A DNA stretch of 64,000 bases from Octopus vulgaris (Eukaryota), in NCBI GenBank assembly GCA_951406725.2, contig OX597814.1:78368001-78432000 (forward strand). The letters run 5' to 3'. Numbering within the stretch: the stretch's first letter is position 1; every line of letters starts with the position of its first letter. Made by a program: the position numbers. Shown here one piece after another: positions 9,001-24,000 of this stretch.

Positions 9001-12000
9001 TTCTAATTATCATAATTGTATCAAGTAATTTTTATAAAAGCTTCTAAATATACATAAAATCTTATGTACTTTGTATATAAATTTATATTAGACTACACAC
9101 TAGCACAAAGGTGTACAGAGTACTTCTATAATTTTGCGCAATATATATATATACACACACACACAGAGTTAAAAATGCTTTTTGCCAAATGAAATGTAGT
9201 AAACTCACCTGTTTGGCTAACCTGTGCAGATAAAACAACATTTTGTGAGTTAGATACACTTGCCTCACTATACCCATCAAACATGGAATCACCAAGAGAA
9301 TCATCAGGCTGTCAGTGGGGAATAAAAAGAACCATACATCTTTCACAAAGATTCAAAATAAGATTAAGGAAGAAAATATCAACTTATAATACACAAAAAA
9401 TATCAAATCTTAGAAATTATGAGAATATTTGTTAAAAATCATTAAAATCATCATCATCACCATCTATATTAGCTGAATTAATCCAGAATTTAACCTACTA
9501 TTTCTTGCCATTTGTCAGGGTTTCCATTGCATCTATTTTACTCTAATTCAAACTTCTTAAGAGTACAGACTGACCTGAAGTGATAAGATGCATACAATTT
9601 CCATCCTTGCTCACCAAACAACCTATCTCTCCACCCCCCTCAATAATAATACAGTGTTTACCTTCATATGAAGCAACAGATTTATTATCAAAGGTGTTCT
9701 AGACATGACCATCCTGTCATTTTTTGAATATCAGGAACTACATTGTTTAATAAGCCTTTCCAATTTTTAAAAAAAAAGAGAGTAGAGAGGGTCAATGTTA
9801 TAGGGATTTTGTTGCTATTTCTAGAAGATCAAATGACTACATTGATAAAATCTTATTGGCTCAACTCAGAAATATAAAATTTCTGGTGTAACTGTATACA
9901 AAAAAAAAAAAAATACCTATGACAAACCAAAGTACAGGGTGGCTCAAAAGTCATGAAAGTGTTGATAATTCTTTTATGTTCTGCATAATATTAGGTGTGA
10001 AAAATCACATCTTGTAAATTACAAATAAAAAAGTAATTAAGACAAAATATTACAATTTCAGACCCCTTTGCAACTTTTAGACCACCCTACATTTGTTTAT
10101 CTCTCACACTTAAAGCTGCAAAAACTAAATATAAATTACCTGCCTGGCAGACCACTGTGATAAGCAAAACAAACAATATAATAGATAAATAAAAATCCAA
10201 ATCAATTTGAAAGTTCAATTAAATCCTCCTAAGAGTTAATTCGTAAACCTAATCAAATTTTGCAAAAGAATTAGTTTGCAAGCCAAATTAAATCCCCCAC
10301 AAGAGTTAGCTTGCAGGTCTAATTAGTTCACCCCAAGAGTCCAAACCAAAAACTGAATCAATAAAAATCTGATGGCCCAAAATAAAGGAGTTAACTCTCA
10401 ACTAAGAGTTGAAATGCCAAGAGATTACTAAAATTCTGACAGTTATGGTGTGGTGTGGTATTATAGGACCATTATTCTATCTTTGGCTGGCCTCATTTAC
10501 TAGACTAATTGGACATGATTGTAATTTGAAGTGATAGCTGACTATACAAAAGATAGATTAAACAAATAAATAAAATGTAAGAATGTCATCTAAATTTCAG
10601 TGATTAATTTAGTTATGACATCCCATAATGAAGTATGCTACGTGAAAATTAACCAGGTACATCCCATCACTATTTTGACTATTGGTAATGGCCCAAAATT
10701 AATGAGTTTATTCTCAACTAAGTGTTGAAATGCCAGGAGTTTACTAAAATTCTATAACTGTATGATAGAATTTTAGTATTATTATTGATAATTATTTTCT
10801 TATTAAAAACAATTTTCATTAAAATGTTAATATTTTTCCTTTAGATTTAACACCAATTTTTAGAAGAAATAATTTTTTTCCTTTCTATTTTATTGCTGTC
10901 TTGTTTTTTTTCTTCTTCATTACAAATAACATTTATAATTACTCATTCAACTTAAATTGTTTTCCTAACATTCAAATAATGATTTATTAAGTAATACAGT
11001 TCCTTGCTCTTAGATGCAATGCATAGCTCACTCATGGCAGAGAGCCAGGAGATGATAGGATCTTTCAGGCATACAAGTAATTCCATATTATGAATCAAAT
11101 CTTAGCTACTTGGGTCTGGCTGCCCTGATGAATCTGCTAGATGGCATTGGCAAATGCTCATAAGTATAATATTATGTCACTTGACTCAGTCCCCAAAATA
11201 TATGCAACCACTATTTAGATAGACCACTAGATTCCATAATAACTCCAGCATATTTTGCTTATCTGAAGACATCATGAAAGAAAATAAATAATGTTGGATA
11301 GATTCCAATGAAAGAATTTGGAGTTAAAAATTACTAAATGAAAAAAGTTAATTTACTATCTTAATTGTTTCTTTCTTTTTTTTTATGTAAAAATTCTTTC
11401 ATTGGAATTTCAAACCAATGAAGGTGCCTTTATGTGGTTTGCTTGATTTGCTAGATATAGCAGCCAAATCTCCCTCAAATCACACACTACTGTCTTAAAA
11501 ATACAAAGGCACACAGGATAATGTAATCCAAGATACATTAATCCTGGAAACAATATAAGATGAGACAACTGGAATACCTTTGATTATAGGCCTGCTCAAT
11601 CAGGGATGGCCTAGCACTAAGGAAGTACTAGTACAGAATATTCTAAATTGTTTAAGGAATCTAAAAATTATAGAAGAGAGAAAATGTGAAGTTGTGATAT
11701 TATGATGCAGGAATATTTATGAAATAAATGAAATATGCTTAAATGCAAATAAAAACTAGGTTTTAATTTCTATAAGATTCACTGCACTCTGAGCTAGTCA
11801 CAAATTATGATTAGACTTAAATGGCTGCCAACTTAGGTATTCCTAAATGGTCACTCAACCTATTAGAAATAGTAACCAAATTTATTGATATAAACAATGT
11901 GACATCTTAAAAAATGAAGGACAAGTTTGGAAAAAGTGGTGGTACAGCCATCACTGGAATGTCTTTGACTACAGATCTGTTTAATCTGGGACGACTTGGA

Positions 12001-21000: not shown

Positions 21001-24000
21001 CTCTGCAAATTTGCTGTCTATTTCTTATCAGACAATGTAATCCTAAATATACAGAAGTATTGGGTCATCCCATAGAAAATGCAATTTTTTCAATTGCATG
21101 AACTAAAAGTTGGAAGGGGACAGGATAAACTACCTGCATCAACTTATTTTGAAAGCAGGTAGTAATTTTACCTTGTACTCATTCTTAGTGCAAGTTTTGA
21201 AGAGTGCAGCTCGATTTTAACAGTTATTTTTTTCAAAGCTATAATGGAAGTGACAAAGAAGCATATTCAGCATATTTTGCTTTATGAATTCAATAAAGCA
21301 ACAGCACAACAGAAAGTGCAAGGAATATTAATGCAGTATATGGAGACCAGAGAATAAGTGTAAGCCAGTGTCAATGGTGGTTCCAGAAATTCCAAGCCAG
21401 CAACTGCAACCTAGAAGATGAGCCTCATGCTGGAGGATCTGTAAAACTCGTTGAGGACATCCTGCAAACCCTGGTGAAAGAAAATCCCATCATAACTGTT
21501 GATGAACTAGCAGAGAAGCTTGAATTTCATCATTCAACTATTCATCAATACCTGTGTGCCATTGGGGTAAGTCAGCAAATTGGGTCAATGGATTCCTCAC
21601 AAACTTTCCAAGTCTAATTGCATGCAGAGAGTCAATGTGTGCTCGTCTTTGCTGTCATGTCTCACAAACGACCTGTTTTTGGACCAAATAGTGACTAGTG
21701 ATGAGAAATGGGTTCTCTATAAAAATGTCAAGCACCTAAGACAGTGGCTGGGGAAAGGAGAAACACCAGCATCCCAGACTAAAGAAGGTCTTTACACATG
21801 TAAGCTGTTGTTATGTTTGGTGGGATATGAAAGGTTTAGTCCACTTTGAACTTTTAAACCCAAACCAAATGATGAAGAAGATCTACTGTGAGCAGCTTGA
21901 GCAGCTTAAGTCAGTGCTAGAAGTAAAATGACTATCATTGGTTTCAAGATGAAAGGTGTTTTCCCATCAGCGAGGATGACATTCCAAAAGCTGGAGCAGT
22001 TTGAATGGGGAACAATGCCCCACCCACCATATTTACCAGTCACTGCCCCATCAGATTATCATTTATTCCACAGTTTTCAAAACCATTTGAATGGGAAAAA
22101 TATGAATTCTGTAGACAAGGTCAGAACAGTAGTGGAGGAGTATTTTTTGTCACAGGTAAGTTAATTTTGGGAGAGGGGCCTCACAAATCTACCAGACAGA
22201 TGGAAGAGCATTGTAGAAAATGAAAGAGATTATATTTGAGATTAAAATAGAACTTTGCTTTAATTTTGAAAAATAAAAGAATAAAAAAACTGCATTATTT
22301 ATGGGATGACCCAATATATCTAGAATGATCACAGAGGGAACAGCTTTGACAATAGATCAGCTTGGTCAGGGCTAAACAAACAACAAATTGTCTTTTATTT
22401 ACTTTAGGTGGGGGAAGGCAGTGAGCTGACAGAATTGTCAGCATGTCCAGCTTTATGTTCTGAGTTCAAATTCTGTCAGGATTAACTTTATCTTTCATCC
22501 TTTCAGGGTCAGTGAAATAAGTACTAATTGAGCACTGAGGTTGATGTAATCAATTTACCCAGTCTCCCAAAATTTCAGGCCTTGTGCCTATAATAGATTT
22601 AATTTAGGTGGGGGTGGATATTTTAATTTCAAATATTGTATAAAATAGTACAAACAATGCTATTGCTGTTGTTGTTGTTTGACTCAAGTCAGCAACAATT
22701 TAGCAGATCTGTAATCAAAGGTACTGAAACCATGACTATCCAATCTTTTCTTAAGGAATGGTGTACTTTTGATCATGTTATCCAATGCATTATTTTTCAG
22801 TGATAGATAAGAGGCAGTTTGAGAGAGGTTTGGCTGCTGTTTCTAACAGATTTAATAACATACCAGACAGGTACCCTTGGTGTTATGTTGGACAACATGG
22901 AACTGTTTCACAATAATTTCTAATTTAGTTTTCAGTAATTGTGAACTAAAAGAGCAGGTAATTGCTATGTGGAAATAATGCAAGACATTAAAACAAAATA
23001 AGTACTAATTTAACTAATCATAGCCGATAGGGTGAAGGGTGAAACAATTTAAAGCTTTCAAAGATGCACTTACAGTAGTAGTAGTAGTAGTGGTAGTAGT
23101 AATAGTAGTAGTAGTAGAGCAGATGGTATCACTAGTGGTGGTGGTGGTAGTAGTAGTACAAGTGGAATCACTAATGGTAGTAGTGATGGTAGTAGTAGTA
23201 GTAGTAGCAAGCAGAGAAGGGTTACTGGACTTGGATGAACAAACTAAACAAAGAAAACAAAATTTACAAAAAAAAATGCAAAAAGAACTGACAGAGAAAC
23301 TAATAACAACAAACAACAGTTAAAATAGCACAAACCACATGCCATCACTCATACAACAATGCAATATTGAATCAATGACTATAGCAACATCCACAGTATC
23401 TTTTTATATAGGATGGGGGTGAAAGGGTTAGCAAAAATAACAACAATATTAATAATAATAATAACAATAATAATAATGGCTTAAATATTGTAGATTTAAG
23501 ATATGGCAAAGCAAACAGTAGGCATTCCTCAGCCAGCAAATATCATTGAGCAAAAGTGCAAAAAGATTTGCAATAAATTGCACCACAGCACCACCAACAA
23601 CAACAATAATAACATATGGCAACAACAATAACAGTAACAATAAAAATACTGGCTGCAGATCATATCTTTTCAGCAATACCTACTTGGAACCAAATTATCC
23701 GTGGAACTGTGATAAAACAAAACAAAAATAATATACTATACACATGTAGAGATGTGTGTGTGTGTTTGTGTGTGCATTGTAAATAATTCTTTCAAAATTC
23801 TAAAAATATTCATAACCATTGTAGGAAAAATGTGGCATTTGTAAAACCAAGATTCAATATAATGCATGCATGCACATAAATGCATATGTGTGCATTATGT
23901 ATATATATGCATACATACACACACATATACACAAACACACTCCCATATACAAGGGGGTGCTGAAAAATTCCTGACTTTGGGTTAAAAGATATATGGGAGG

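What the first reader, a model, noticed from the sequence alone, without database searches (positions are those of the whole stretch)
10140..23706. Phase-consistent chain of microexons and small exons builds a modular RGS-PX linker in SNX13
Seen: exon 35562-35697 ends in phase 1 and exon 9209-9308 starts in phase 0, so at least one exon must lie between them. I find seven AG/GT-bounded segments in gene order: 27 nt (1->1), 170 (1->0), 91 (0->1), 18 (1->1), 56 (1->0), 24 (0->0) and 15 (0->0). They splice without a stop: DD-VPRIIWFQV-VCSSK..(T)n-VMYPES..SVS-AFLTFI-DERQ..LNT-FSDLLDEE-WSARQ-PDDS. Known: vertebrate SNX13 has only a short linker here, and 3-27-nt frame-preserving microexons are typically neural in bilaterians. 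Inference: a lineage-specific combinatorial splicing cassette that tunes RGS-PX spacing and would probably be missed by gene predictors, since none of these segments is called as a separate exon-sized ORF.
Basis: partly seen in the sequence, partly recalled or inferred. Interest (0 to 1): 0.82.

Follow-up and report, generated by a model that had tools for sequence, protein, structure and literature searches.

The report
Octopus SNX13 either-or linker exons
Of the seven mini-exons proposed in the octopus SNX13 gene, only the first two have any support; both are already in public gene models, and every available protein carries one or the other, never both in a chain.

Summary
The window holds 15 exons of an Octopus SNX13 gene on the minus strand, all identical to O. 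sinensis isoform X1. Exon 35697-35562 ends in phase 1, exon 9308-9209 starts in phase 0, and all seven segments are AG/GT-bounded, stop-free and phase-consistent.

Phase consistency is no evidence here. The 26,253-nt intron holds 6,353 such segments, against 7,312 on its antisense strand and about 5,439 in shuffles. It allows about 2e13 seven-exon chains on either strand.

Only two segments are supported. One is a microexon that is 23 nt long, not 27 (23706-23684, VPRIIWFQ). The other is the 170-nt Thr-rich exon (23243-23074). Eight of 10 cephalopod SNX13 proteins carry the first, 2 of 10 the second and none both. None of 52 family proteins carries any of the other five segments.

Each exon is 3n+2 long. 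Skipping both, or including both, gives a premature stop. This is a frame-enforced either-or pair. The microexon motif also occurs in 12 of 19 bivalve, gastropod and chiton entries, so it is not lineage-specific. Both exons are in RefSeq models. Interest is low to moderate.

The parts
35562..35697 (-). Constitutive exon at the end of the RGS domain (VFQLLL...STLDVDD). 136 nt, phase 0 in, phase 1 out, carried base G.
   Evidence: 100% identical to residues 494-538 of O. sinensis SNX13 X1 (P0006); AG before, GT after.
23684..23706 (-). Alternative exon A: 23-nt microexon, phase 1 to 0, encodes (V)PRIIWFQ. Acceptor ttttatcacag|, donor CAA|gtaggt.
   Evidence: DVDD-VPRIIWFQ-P(D/E)DS in 8 of 10 cephalopod proteins; acceptor rank 18 of 1310, donor rank 33 of 1410 in the intron; an equal-or-better segment appears in 2 of 20 shuffles.
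23680..23683 (-). The four bases GTAG between the used donor and a second GT (tandem donors 4 nt apart).
   Evidence: the downstream donor TAG|gtattg scores 0.8 (rank 362 of 1410), against 6.7 for the used donor. No protein shows its product (0 of 52 have WFQVVCSS).
23074..23243 (-). Alternative exon B: 170 nt, phase 1 to 0, encodes (V)CSSKSSNPSLLA followed by a Thr-rich low-complexity tract (57 residues in all). It is mostly an (ACT/ACC)n coding microsatellite.
   Evidence: 93% identical to O. bimaculoides isoform X2 (P0005); a 29-residue version is in transcript-derived P0010; acceptor tttgtttag|, donor ACT|gtaagt; period-3 array at 23074-23207, 44.7 copies.
9209..9308 (-). Constitutive exon just before and at the start of the PX domain (PDDSLGDS...LSAQVSQT). 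100 nt, phase 0 in, phase 1 out.
   Evidence: 100% identical to P0006 residues 547-580.
18764..18854 (-). No support as an exon.
   Evidence: 0 of 52 proteins; 3 weak hits among 1.84e9 representatives, none with SNX13 domains; equal-or-better in 15 of 20 shuffles.
18392..18409 (-). No support as an exon.
   Evidence: 0 of 52; equal-or-better in 19 of 20 shuffles.
13866..13921 (-). No support as an exon; weak acceptor.
   Evidence: acceptor score -0.6, rank 572 of 1310; 0 of 52; equal-or-better in 20 of 20 shuffles.
13005..13028 (-). No support as an exon.
   Evidence: 0 of 52; equal-or-better in 18 of 20 shuffles.
10140..10154 (-). No transcript or protein support, but it has the best splice sites of the five, so it is the only one not dismissed by site quality.
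   Evidence: acceptor rank 61 of 1310, donor CAG|gtaatt rank 12 of 1410. TGC lies 12 nt before the AG; equal-or-better in 6 of 20 shuffles; 0 of 52 proteins.

Best explanation
The 26-kb intron between the last RGS exon and the first PX exon of this octopus SNX13 gene holds two real alternative exons, 440 nt apart. Exon A is a 23-nt microexon encoding VPRIIWFQ. Exon B is a 170-nt exon encoding a 57-residue Ser/Thr-rich tract.

Each exon is 3n+2 long and alone restores the reading frame, so productive mRNAs carry exactly one. With neither, the frame runs straight into TGA. With both, it shifts and stops in the next exon but one.

The result is a two-state switch of the RGS-PX linker. One state is a short, conserved, hydrophobic and basic insert. 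The other is a long, flexible, hydroxyl-rich spacer.

Shown here: the exons, their boundaries, the frame logic, and their presence in public protein models and transcript-derived proteins. The A motif also appears in other molluscs' proteins, where its exon status was not checked.

Inferred: out-of-frame products are removed by nonsense-mediated decay, and the two inserts change how the PX domain meets membranes or neighbouring domains.

The other five segments are chance AG...GT open stretches of the kind any long AT-rich intron supplies in thousands.
For: - Exon map: 15 exons are 100% identical to O. sinensis SNX13 X1 residues 152-700.
- Proteins: 8 of 10 cephalopod SNX13 proteins read DVDD-VPRIIWFQ-P(D/E)DS and 2 of 10 read DVDD-VCSSKSS...T(n)-P(D/E)DS. 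None has both and none has neither. Four of the 10 come from transcript-sized contigs of 3.2-3.6 kb.
- Frame logic, read exon by exon: skipping both gives G|CC TGA. A plus B leaves B and exon 9308-9209 open, but gives a stop at the third codon of exon 6525-6380. 170-23 = 147 = 3x49.
- Splice sites: exon A acceptor rank 18 of 1310 and donor rank 33 of 1410. Among 50 single exons able to bridge phase 1 to 0, A ranks 2nd and B 14th by summed site score.
- Conservation: the pattern [VIA]xRIxW[FLC] is found in 12 of 19 non-cephalopod mollusc entries and 0 of 7 non-mollusc entries. At the free positions, V is in 13 of 14 sequences, P in 10, F in 12 and K in 10, while the 12 residues after the motif are poorly conserved.
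- B-like Ser-rich inserts (D[LI]S[AT][KR]SGS...) occupy the same place in Argopecten X1, Haliotis X1, Pomacea X1, Aplysia X2 and Dreissena. Ser-rich tracts occur there in annelids, a hemichordate and a shark.
- Chance controls for the other five segments. Their peptides are absent from 52 of 52 family proteins. The 91-nt peptide has no SNX13-like hit among 1.84e9 representatives.
Against: - The either-or pattern is seen only in proteins. Gene models and ORF calls report only in-frame products, so they could never show double inclusion or double skipping. No read-level data were available.
- Six of the 10 proteins are predicted RefSeq models.
- Absence of the five segments from 52 proteins does not exclude rare or tissue-restricted microexons. 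The 15-nt segment has very good sites: an equal-or-better one appears in only 6 of 20 shuffles.
- The splice-site matrices were trained on only 15 exons of this gene and separate poorly. Leave-one-out scores of real acceptors fall as low as -4.9, and exon B is not distinguished from shuffles by its sites (19 of 20).
- The structural role of exon A is unsettled. AlphaFold2 gave a short strand at residues 542-545, with a local confidence rise (block mean 51 against 31 and 28 on either side), in the octopus protein. For the gastropod orthologue the whole linker 518-570 stayed below pLDDT 50 with no strand.
- No other cephalopod genome could be compared.
Confidence: 0.85

Rival explanations
1. One reading: all seven segments are exons that splice in series or in combinations, building a long modular linker of up to 401 nt (about 133 residues).
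For: All seven are AG/GT-bounded, stop-free and phase-consistent. None lies in a repeat detectable within the window.
Against: - Phase-consistent chains are no rarer on the antisense strand: 2.1e13 against 2.5e13 seven-exon chains.
- Segment counts equal those of shuffles.
- 0 of 10 cephalopod proteins and 0 of 52 family proteins carry any of the last five peptides or the A27-B junction.
- Homologues have nothing alignable to them.
- The 56-nt segment has a poor acceptor, rank 572 of 1310.
Confidence: 0.02
2. A third productive isoform exists. The downstream tandem donor (27-nt form of exon A, phase 1 to 1) is used together with exon B, giving DD-VPRIIWFQV-VCSSK... in frame, as in the first two steps of the reader's chain.
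For: The sequence CAA|GTAG|GTATTG offers two GT donors 4 nt apart. 27+170 keeps the frame.
Against: The downstream donor scores 0.8 (rank 362 of 1410) against 6.7 for the used one. 0 of 52 proteins contain the junction WFQVVCSS. The 27-nt form alone runs into TGA, so most of its products would be unproductive.
Confidence: 0.08
3. The 15-nt segment 10154-10140 (WSARQ, phase 0 to 0) is a real, rarely included (perhaps neural) microexon missed by annotation. It could be added after either A or B.
For: Acceptor rank 61 of 1310 and donor CAG|gtaatt rank 12 of 1410. A TGC lies 12 nt upstream of the AG, a feature reported for eMIC-dependent microexons (PMC8797185, passages read). No equal-or-better segment occurs on the antisense strand, and the mean is 0.3 per shuffle.
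Against: 6 of 20 shuffles still give one as good, and it was picked from thousands of candidates. 0 of 52 proteins have WSARQ. No homologue has an insert at that point.
Confidence: 0.1
4. A and B are independent cassette exons. The out-of-frame combinations (none, both) are not errors but a regulated unproductive-splicing route that sets SNX13 dosage.
For: Both non-productive combinations meet premature stops upstream of further exon junctions. The 440-nt intron between A and B is long enough for both to be spliced in.
Against: There are no data on RNA abundance or decay. Protein databases cannot show such products.
Confidence: 0.15

Closest known systems
Mutually exclusive exon pairs whose exclusivity is backed by the reading frame and nonsense-mediated decay (textbook example recalled from memory: FGFR2 IIIb/IIIc). 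General treatment of triplet and non-triplet events in PMC13247117 (passages read).
   Same: Two neighbouring alternative exons sit in one intron. Each is 3n+2 long and the length difference is a multiple of 3 (147). Exactly one is present in every productive product, and none or both gives a premature stop.
   Different: The two exons are not duplicates of each other: 23 nt against 170 nt, with unrelated sequence. The 440-nt intron between them is probably too long for steric exclusion (recalled rule, not tested). No competing RNA structure stood out (z = +1.06). Decay of the unproductive forms is inferred, not shown.
Neural microexons dependent on the eMIC domain of Srrm234/SRRM4 (PMC8797185, passages read).
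   Same: Exon A is 23 nt, frame-restoring, and conserved over a long evolutionary distance. It sits in a membrane-traffic gene.
   Different: The reported cis signature (UGC close to the 3' splice site, long AG-exclusion zone) is not seen at exon A. The nearest upstream TGC is at -70, and an AG lies about 29 nt upstream. Tissue specificity is untested. Exon A is paired with an alternative exon rather than being a simple cassette.
SNX-RGS proteins (SNX13/14/19/25, fly Snazarus, yeast Mdm1): PXA-RGS-PX-PXC tethers and proposed lipid-transfer proteins (PMC8864675, passages read).
   Same: The gene is an SNX13 orthologue. The matching proteins carry Pfam PXA, RGS, PX and Nexin_C. That paper describes the RGS and PX domains as flexibly placed, with unstructured linkers.
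   Different: That paper does not mention splicing (0 occurrences of 'splic'). The either-or linker exons and the VPRIIWF(K/Q) motif are not described in any paper my searches reached.
Tandem 5' splice sites 4 nt apart (GTNNGT type; recalled from memory, no paper read).
   Same: CAA|GTAG|GTATTG at the end of exon A offers two donors 4 nt apart. The shift changes the frame.
   Different: Only the upstream donor is supported by proteins. Use of the second is hypothetical.

Membership tests
SNX13 (SNX-RGS family) | PXA, RGS, PX and Nexin_C (PXC) domains in that order | tested here: met
   The window's 15 exons are 100% identical to residues 152-700 of O. sinensis SNX13 X1. That protein and 9 other cephalopod proteins carry PF02194, PF00615, PF00787 and PF08628 (precomputed). 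Residues 1-151 and those after 700 lie outside the window.
Mutually exclusive exons | Two or more adjacent alternative exons, exactly one of which is in each mature product | tested here: met
   10 of 10 cephalopod proteins have A or B, never both or neither. Caveat: protein models cannot show out-of-frame RNAs, and no reads were available.
Mutually exclusive exons | Frame-preserving exchange (length difference a multiple of 3) | tested here: met
   170-23 = 147 = 3x49.
Mutually exclusive exons (tandem-duplicated type) | The alternative exons are homologous copies of similar length | tested here: not met
   23 nt against 170 nt; VPRIIWFQ against VCSSKSS...T(n), with no similarity.
Mutually exclusive exons (frame/NMD-enforced type) | Inclusion of both or neither creates a premature stop | tested here: met
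   Neither: G|CC TGA. Both: stop at codon 3 of exon 6525-6380.
Mutually exclusive exons (frame/NMD-enforced type) | The aberrant mRNAs are degraded by nonsense-mediated decay | not testable with these tools
   Needs RNA data with and without decay inhibition.
Mutually exclusive exons (RNA-structure type) | Competing docking and selector base-pairing around the exons | tested here: inconclusive
   A 29-nt, 72% complementary repeat links the intron after A to the interior of B. The 661-nt region folds no better than shuffles (z = +1.06; 16 of 20 shuffles fold as well). No second species was available for covariation.
Microexon (27 nt or shorter) | Exon length 3-27 nt with functional splice sites, present in transcripts | tested here: met
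   Exon A is 23 nt. It is in 8 of 10 proteins, including 3 of the 4 from transcript-sized contigs.
eMIC/SRRM4-dependent neural microexon | UGC motif close to the 3' splice site | tested here: not met
   For exon A the nearest upstream TGC is at -70. The feature is taken from PMC8797185.
eMIC/SRRM4-dependent neural microexon | Neural-specific inclusion dependent on Srrm234 eMIC | not testable with these tools
   No expression data.

The most novel reading that the evidence does not exclude
The VPRI(I/L/M)WF(K/Q) microexon arose early in molluscan evolution and has been kept from bivalves to octopus. It works as one arm of a binary switch in SNX13. It replaces an ancestral disordered Ser/Thr-rich (probably phosphorylatable) spacer with a short basic-aromatic motif next to the PX domain. 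That motif either inserts into membranes or docks as a beta-strand on a neighbouring domain, which would change which contact sites the tether engages. In cephalopods the other arm has ballooned through a coding (ACT)n microsatellite. A tandem donor and a possible 15-nt microexon may add rarer states.
Probability: 0.2. Interest if true: 0.5.

Novelty: new member of a known kind. Interest (0 to 1): 0.25.

Why it matters
As submitted (a seven-exon, lineage-specific, unannotated combinatorial cassette), the finding would have been striking, but it does not hold. What remains is a tidy but ordinary case: a frame-enforced either-or exon pair, already in RefSeq gene models.

Two points have modest value:
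- They show how easily phase-consistent 'microexon chains' can be read into any long AT-rich intron. Here there are about 2e13 such chains on either strand.
- The 8-residue microexon motif is conserved across bivalves, gastropods and cephalopods inside an otherwise fast-evolving linker of a membrane-contact-site protein. That marks it as a candidate functional motif for anyone working on SNX-RGS proteins.

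Tried and rejected
Whether O. sinensis or O. vulgaris models also include the B isoform, or an A27+B isoform, stayed unchecked.
- A third homologue search with 40 residues centred on the scallop microexon returned only the query itself (1 candidate). The age of the microexon outside molluscs rests on 7 non-mollusc entries only.
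- My first regular-expression attempt to cut out the linkers failed and was replaced by a MAFFT alignment.
- Repeat or transposon origin of the segments: a self-BLAST of each segment with 300-nt flanks found no second copy, apart from an unrelated 66-nt repeat near the 15-nt segment.
- Duplication between the exon A region and the 15-nt segment region (their acceptors look alike): the alignment shows only T-rich tract similarity. Rejected.
- RNA structure linking exon A's downstream intron with exon B: inverted repeat found, fold z = +1.06. Rejected for lack of signal.
- Rbfox-type TGCATG near exons A and B: none within 150 nt.
- Rfam scan of the whole window: 0 matches at gathering thresholds.
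- AlphaFold2 of the A isoform gave a strand at the microexon in the octopus protein but not in the gastropod orthologue. The beta-strand idea is left as a weak lead.
No result exists.
- The splice-site matrices are weak: real acceptors score as low as -4.9 in leave-one-out. I use them only as a control, not as proof.
Exons were searched one at a time and frame consequences were read exon by exon.
DNA-level conservation was therefore not tested.
- Supplementary tables of the microexon papers were not seen and could list SNX13 orthologues.

Full report
**What the window is.** The window is AT-rich (GC about 0.30-0.38 outside one element) and has no N. Searching the translated exon 35697-35563 on its own found 10 proteins with E <= 0.001 among 33 candidates. 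Six are named sorting nexin-13 isoforms of Octopus sinensis, O. vulgaris and O. bimaculoides. Four are unnamed proteins from contigs of 3.2-3.6 kb. tblastn and exact-word mapping place 15 exons of this gene on the minus strand, from 61086 down to 4507. They are 100% identical to residues 152-700 of O. sinensis isoform X1 (P0006) and all are AG/GT-bounded. Residues before 152 and after 700 are outside the window. The window is not human.

Exons were searched one by one, and all frame reasoning was done exon by exon.

**The observation.** Exon 35697-35562 (136 nt) ends with one carried G. Exon 9308-9209 (100 nt) starts in phase 0. A direct join reads G|CC TGA. Exact coordinates are in the parts list.

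**Is it more than chance?** No.
- The 26,253-nt intron contains 1,310 AG and 1,410 GT.
- It holds 6,353 AG..GT segments of 9-200 nt that are open in at least one phase. Its antisense strand has 7,312, and 5 dinucleotide-preserving shuffles average 5,439.
With stricter thresholds they are 40, 39 and 59.
- Dynamic programming over these segments gives 2.1e13 phase-consistent seven-exon chains from phase 1 to phase 0 on the sense strand and 2.5e13 on the antisense strand.
- Segment by segment, an equal-or-better candidate appears in 15 (91 nt), 19 (18 nt), 20 (56 nt), 18 (24 nt) and 6 (15 nt) of 20 shuffles.

The splice-site matrices behind these numbers were trained on only the 15 real exons and are weak. 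Leave-one-out scores range from 2.8 to 11.7 for donors and from -4.9 to 7.9 for acceptors. They serve as a control only.

**What the proteins say.**
- Eight of the 10 cephalopod proteins read ...STLDVDD-VPRIIWFQ-P(D/E)DS...
- Two of the 10 (O. bimaculoides X2, P0005; transcript-derived P0010) read ...STLDVDD-VCSSKSS...Thr-rich...-P(D/E)DS...
- None has both and none has neither.

The first form fixes the microexon at 23 nt (23706-23684, donor CAA|gtaggt). That donor scores 0.8 (rank 362 of 1410), against 6.7 (rank 33) for the used one.

Short words from each of the other five segments, and the junction expected from 27 nt plus 170 nt, occur in 0 of 52 stored SNX13-family proteins. The 30-residue translation of the 91-nt segment was searched against 1.84 billion representatives. 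It gave 3 hits with E <= 0.001 (best 3.5e-9). All are repetitive proteins without PXA, RGS, PX or Nexin_C domains.

Caveat: gene models and ORF calls only ever show in-frame products. Protein evidence therefore cannot reveal unproductive RNAs or rare isoforms.

**How it works.** Exons A (23 nt) and B (170 nt) are both 3n+2 and lie 440 nt apart. The intron before A is about 11.9 kb, and about 13.8 kb of intron follows B. Either exon alone restores the frame.
- With neither, the next codon but one is TGA.
- With both, B is read as a Leu-rich frame, exon 9308-9209 stays open, and a stop comes at the third codon of exon 6525-6380.

This is the known pattern of a frame-enforced either-or exon pair with a length difference of 147 nt. 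Removal of the out-of-frame RNAs by nonsense-mediated decay is inferred from general knowledge, not shown. The two exons are unrelated in sequence, so this is not the tandem-duplicate type. A low-complexity complementarity exists between the (GTT/GGT)n tract after exon A and the (ACC/ACT)n body of exon B. However, the 661-nt region folds no better than shuffles (z = +1.06; 16 of 20 shuffles fold as well).

**Conservation.** A search with residues 470-640 of P0006 gave 54 proteins with E <= 0.001 among 562 candidates. I fetched 26 named ones and aligned 31 proteins.
- The pattern [VIA]xRIxW[FLC] occurs at the same place in 12 of 19 non-cephalopod mollusc entries. These are the bivalves Mizuhopecten, Ostrea, Crassostrea virginica, Solemya, Ruditapes and Mya, and the gastropods Gigantopelta, Patella, Bradybaena, Elysia, Physella and Biomphalaria.
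- It occurs in 0 of 7 non-mollusc entries: three annelids, a brachiopod, a hemichordate, a shark and a bee.
- R, I and W are fixed by the pattern itself. At the free positions, V is in 13 of 14 sequences, P in 10, F in 12 and K in 10. The following 12 residues reach at most 8 of 14.
- Of the 7 mollusc entries without the motif, Argopecten X1, Haliotis X1, Pomacea X1, Aplysia X2 and Dreissena have a Ser-rich insert in its place (for example DISTKSGSSIG, DLSARSGSVGS). Its start resembles the octopus VCSSKSS.
- The remaining two, the Pinctada and chiton entries, differ and may be mispredicted.
- Ser-rich tracts followed by an acidic EDL-like motif also sit here in annelids, the hemichordate and the shark.

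The B-type spacer therefore looks ancestral. The microexon looks like an old molluscan feature, within the limits of 7 outgroup entries and one isoform per entry. In cephalopods B has grown: 29 residues in P0010 against 57 in Octopus. In the window it is a period-3 array of 44.7 copies.

**Function (inferred).** Exon A puts a basic-aromatic, hydrophobic octapeptide between two acidic stretches just upstream of the PX domain. Exon B puts a long hydroxyl-rich low-complexity spacer there.

AlphaFold2 on P0006 with a 26-sequence alignment (mean pLDDT 69.5) gave a strand at 542-545. The local confidence rose there: the block mean was 51, against 31 and 28 on either side, and the below-50 segments were 525-541 and 547-569. 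The same run with the gastropod orthologue first (microexon at 532-539) left 518-570 below 50 with no strand. That is one of two, so the docking idea is only a lead. A controlled complex prediction could not be queued. The passages of PMC8864675 that I read describe the RGS and PX domains as flexibly placed, with unstructured linkers, and do not mention splicing.

**Is exon A a neural microexon?** Untestable here. The cis features reported for eMIC-dependent exons include UGC close to the 3' splice site and a long AG-exclusion zone (PMC8797185, passages). They are not seen at exon A: the nearest TGC is at -70 and an AG lies about 29 nt upstream. By contrast, the unsupported 15-nt segment does have a TGC 12 nt before its AG and a strong donor. 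That is why I keep it as a 10% rival.

**Literature.**
- 'SNX13' with 'microexon': 0 papers.
- 'SNX13' with 'octopus': 0 papers.
- 'SNX13', 'alternative splicing' and 'isoform': 17 papers. Of the 10 listed, none concerns this by title or abstract start.
- 'sorting nexin' with 'mutually exclusive exons': 7 papers, none relevant by title.
- 'microexon' with 'cephalopod': 2 papers.

I saw listings only, except for passages of PMC8797185, PMC8864675 and PMC13247117. Supplements were not seen.

**Verdict.** What is there is an annotated, frame-enforced either-or pair of linker exons, one of them a 23-nt microexon with a motif conserved across molluscs.

Noticed in passing
window 36317-39346 (+ strand), within the intron upstream of exon 35697-35562: GC-rich block (0.46 against about 0.32 around it) with ORFs matching endonuclease/exonuclease/phosphatase domains (Exo_endo_phos_2, E 9e-12) and reverse transcriptase (RVT_1, E 4e-32). 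It is a LINE-type retroelement inserted antisense to SNX13.
   Followed up: partly
window 56442-56981 (+ strand): ORF with a mariner-type transposase DDE domain (Transposase_1, E 1.6e-19), in another SNX13 intron.
   Followed up: partly
window about 31010-32226: More than 1 kb of TA/TATATA-type simple repeat, read as (YI)n ORFs of up to 394 codons. The GC dip to 0.27 sits in this block.
   Followed up: no
window 23074-23207 (exon B): The Thr tract is a coding trinucleotide array (period 3, 44.7 copies, 72% matches). Its length differs between species: 57 residues in Octopus, with indels between the window and O. bimaculoides, against 29 in P0010.
   Followed up: partly
window 23753-23774: A (CA)n/(TG)n dinucleotide repeat lies 47-68 nt upstream of exon A's acceptor. 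CA repeats are known binding sites for some splicing regulators (recalled from memory); not tested.
   Followed up: no
window 18741-18746: A TGCATG hexamer sits 17 nt after the GT of the unsupported 91-nt segment, and 9 such hexamers occur in the whole intron. It is most likely chance.
   Followed up: no
window 23590-23618 and 23120-23148: A 29-nt, 72% complementary inverted repeat links the (GTT/GGT)n tract in the intron after exon A with the (ACC/ACT)n body of exon B. The region's fold is no more stable than shuffles.
   Followed up: yes
window 10372-10437 and 10688-10753: A 66-nt direct repeat, 89% identical, in the intron near the 15-nt segment.
   Followed up: no
proteins P0001-P0010 (outside the window, after residue 700 of P0006): The same gene has further alternative regions. 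One is a 37-residue insert (MEILVNPL...FNVKG) that is present or absent. The lgn proteins also have a further optional 23-residue stretch, and the N-termini and C-termini differ between isoforms.
   Followed up: no
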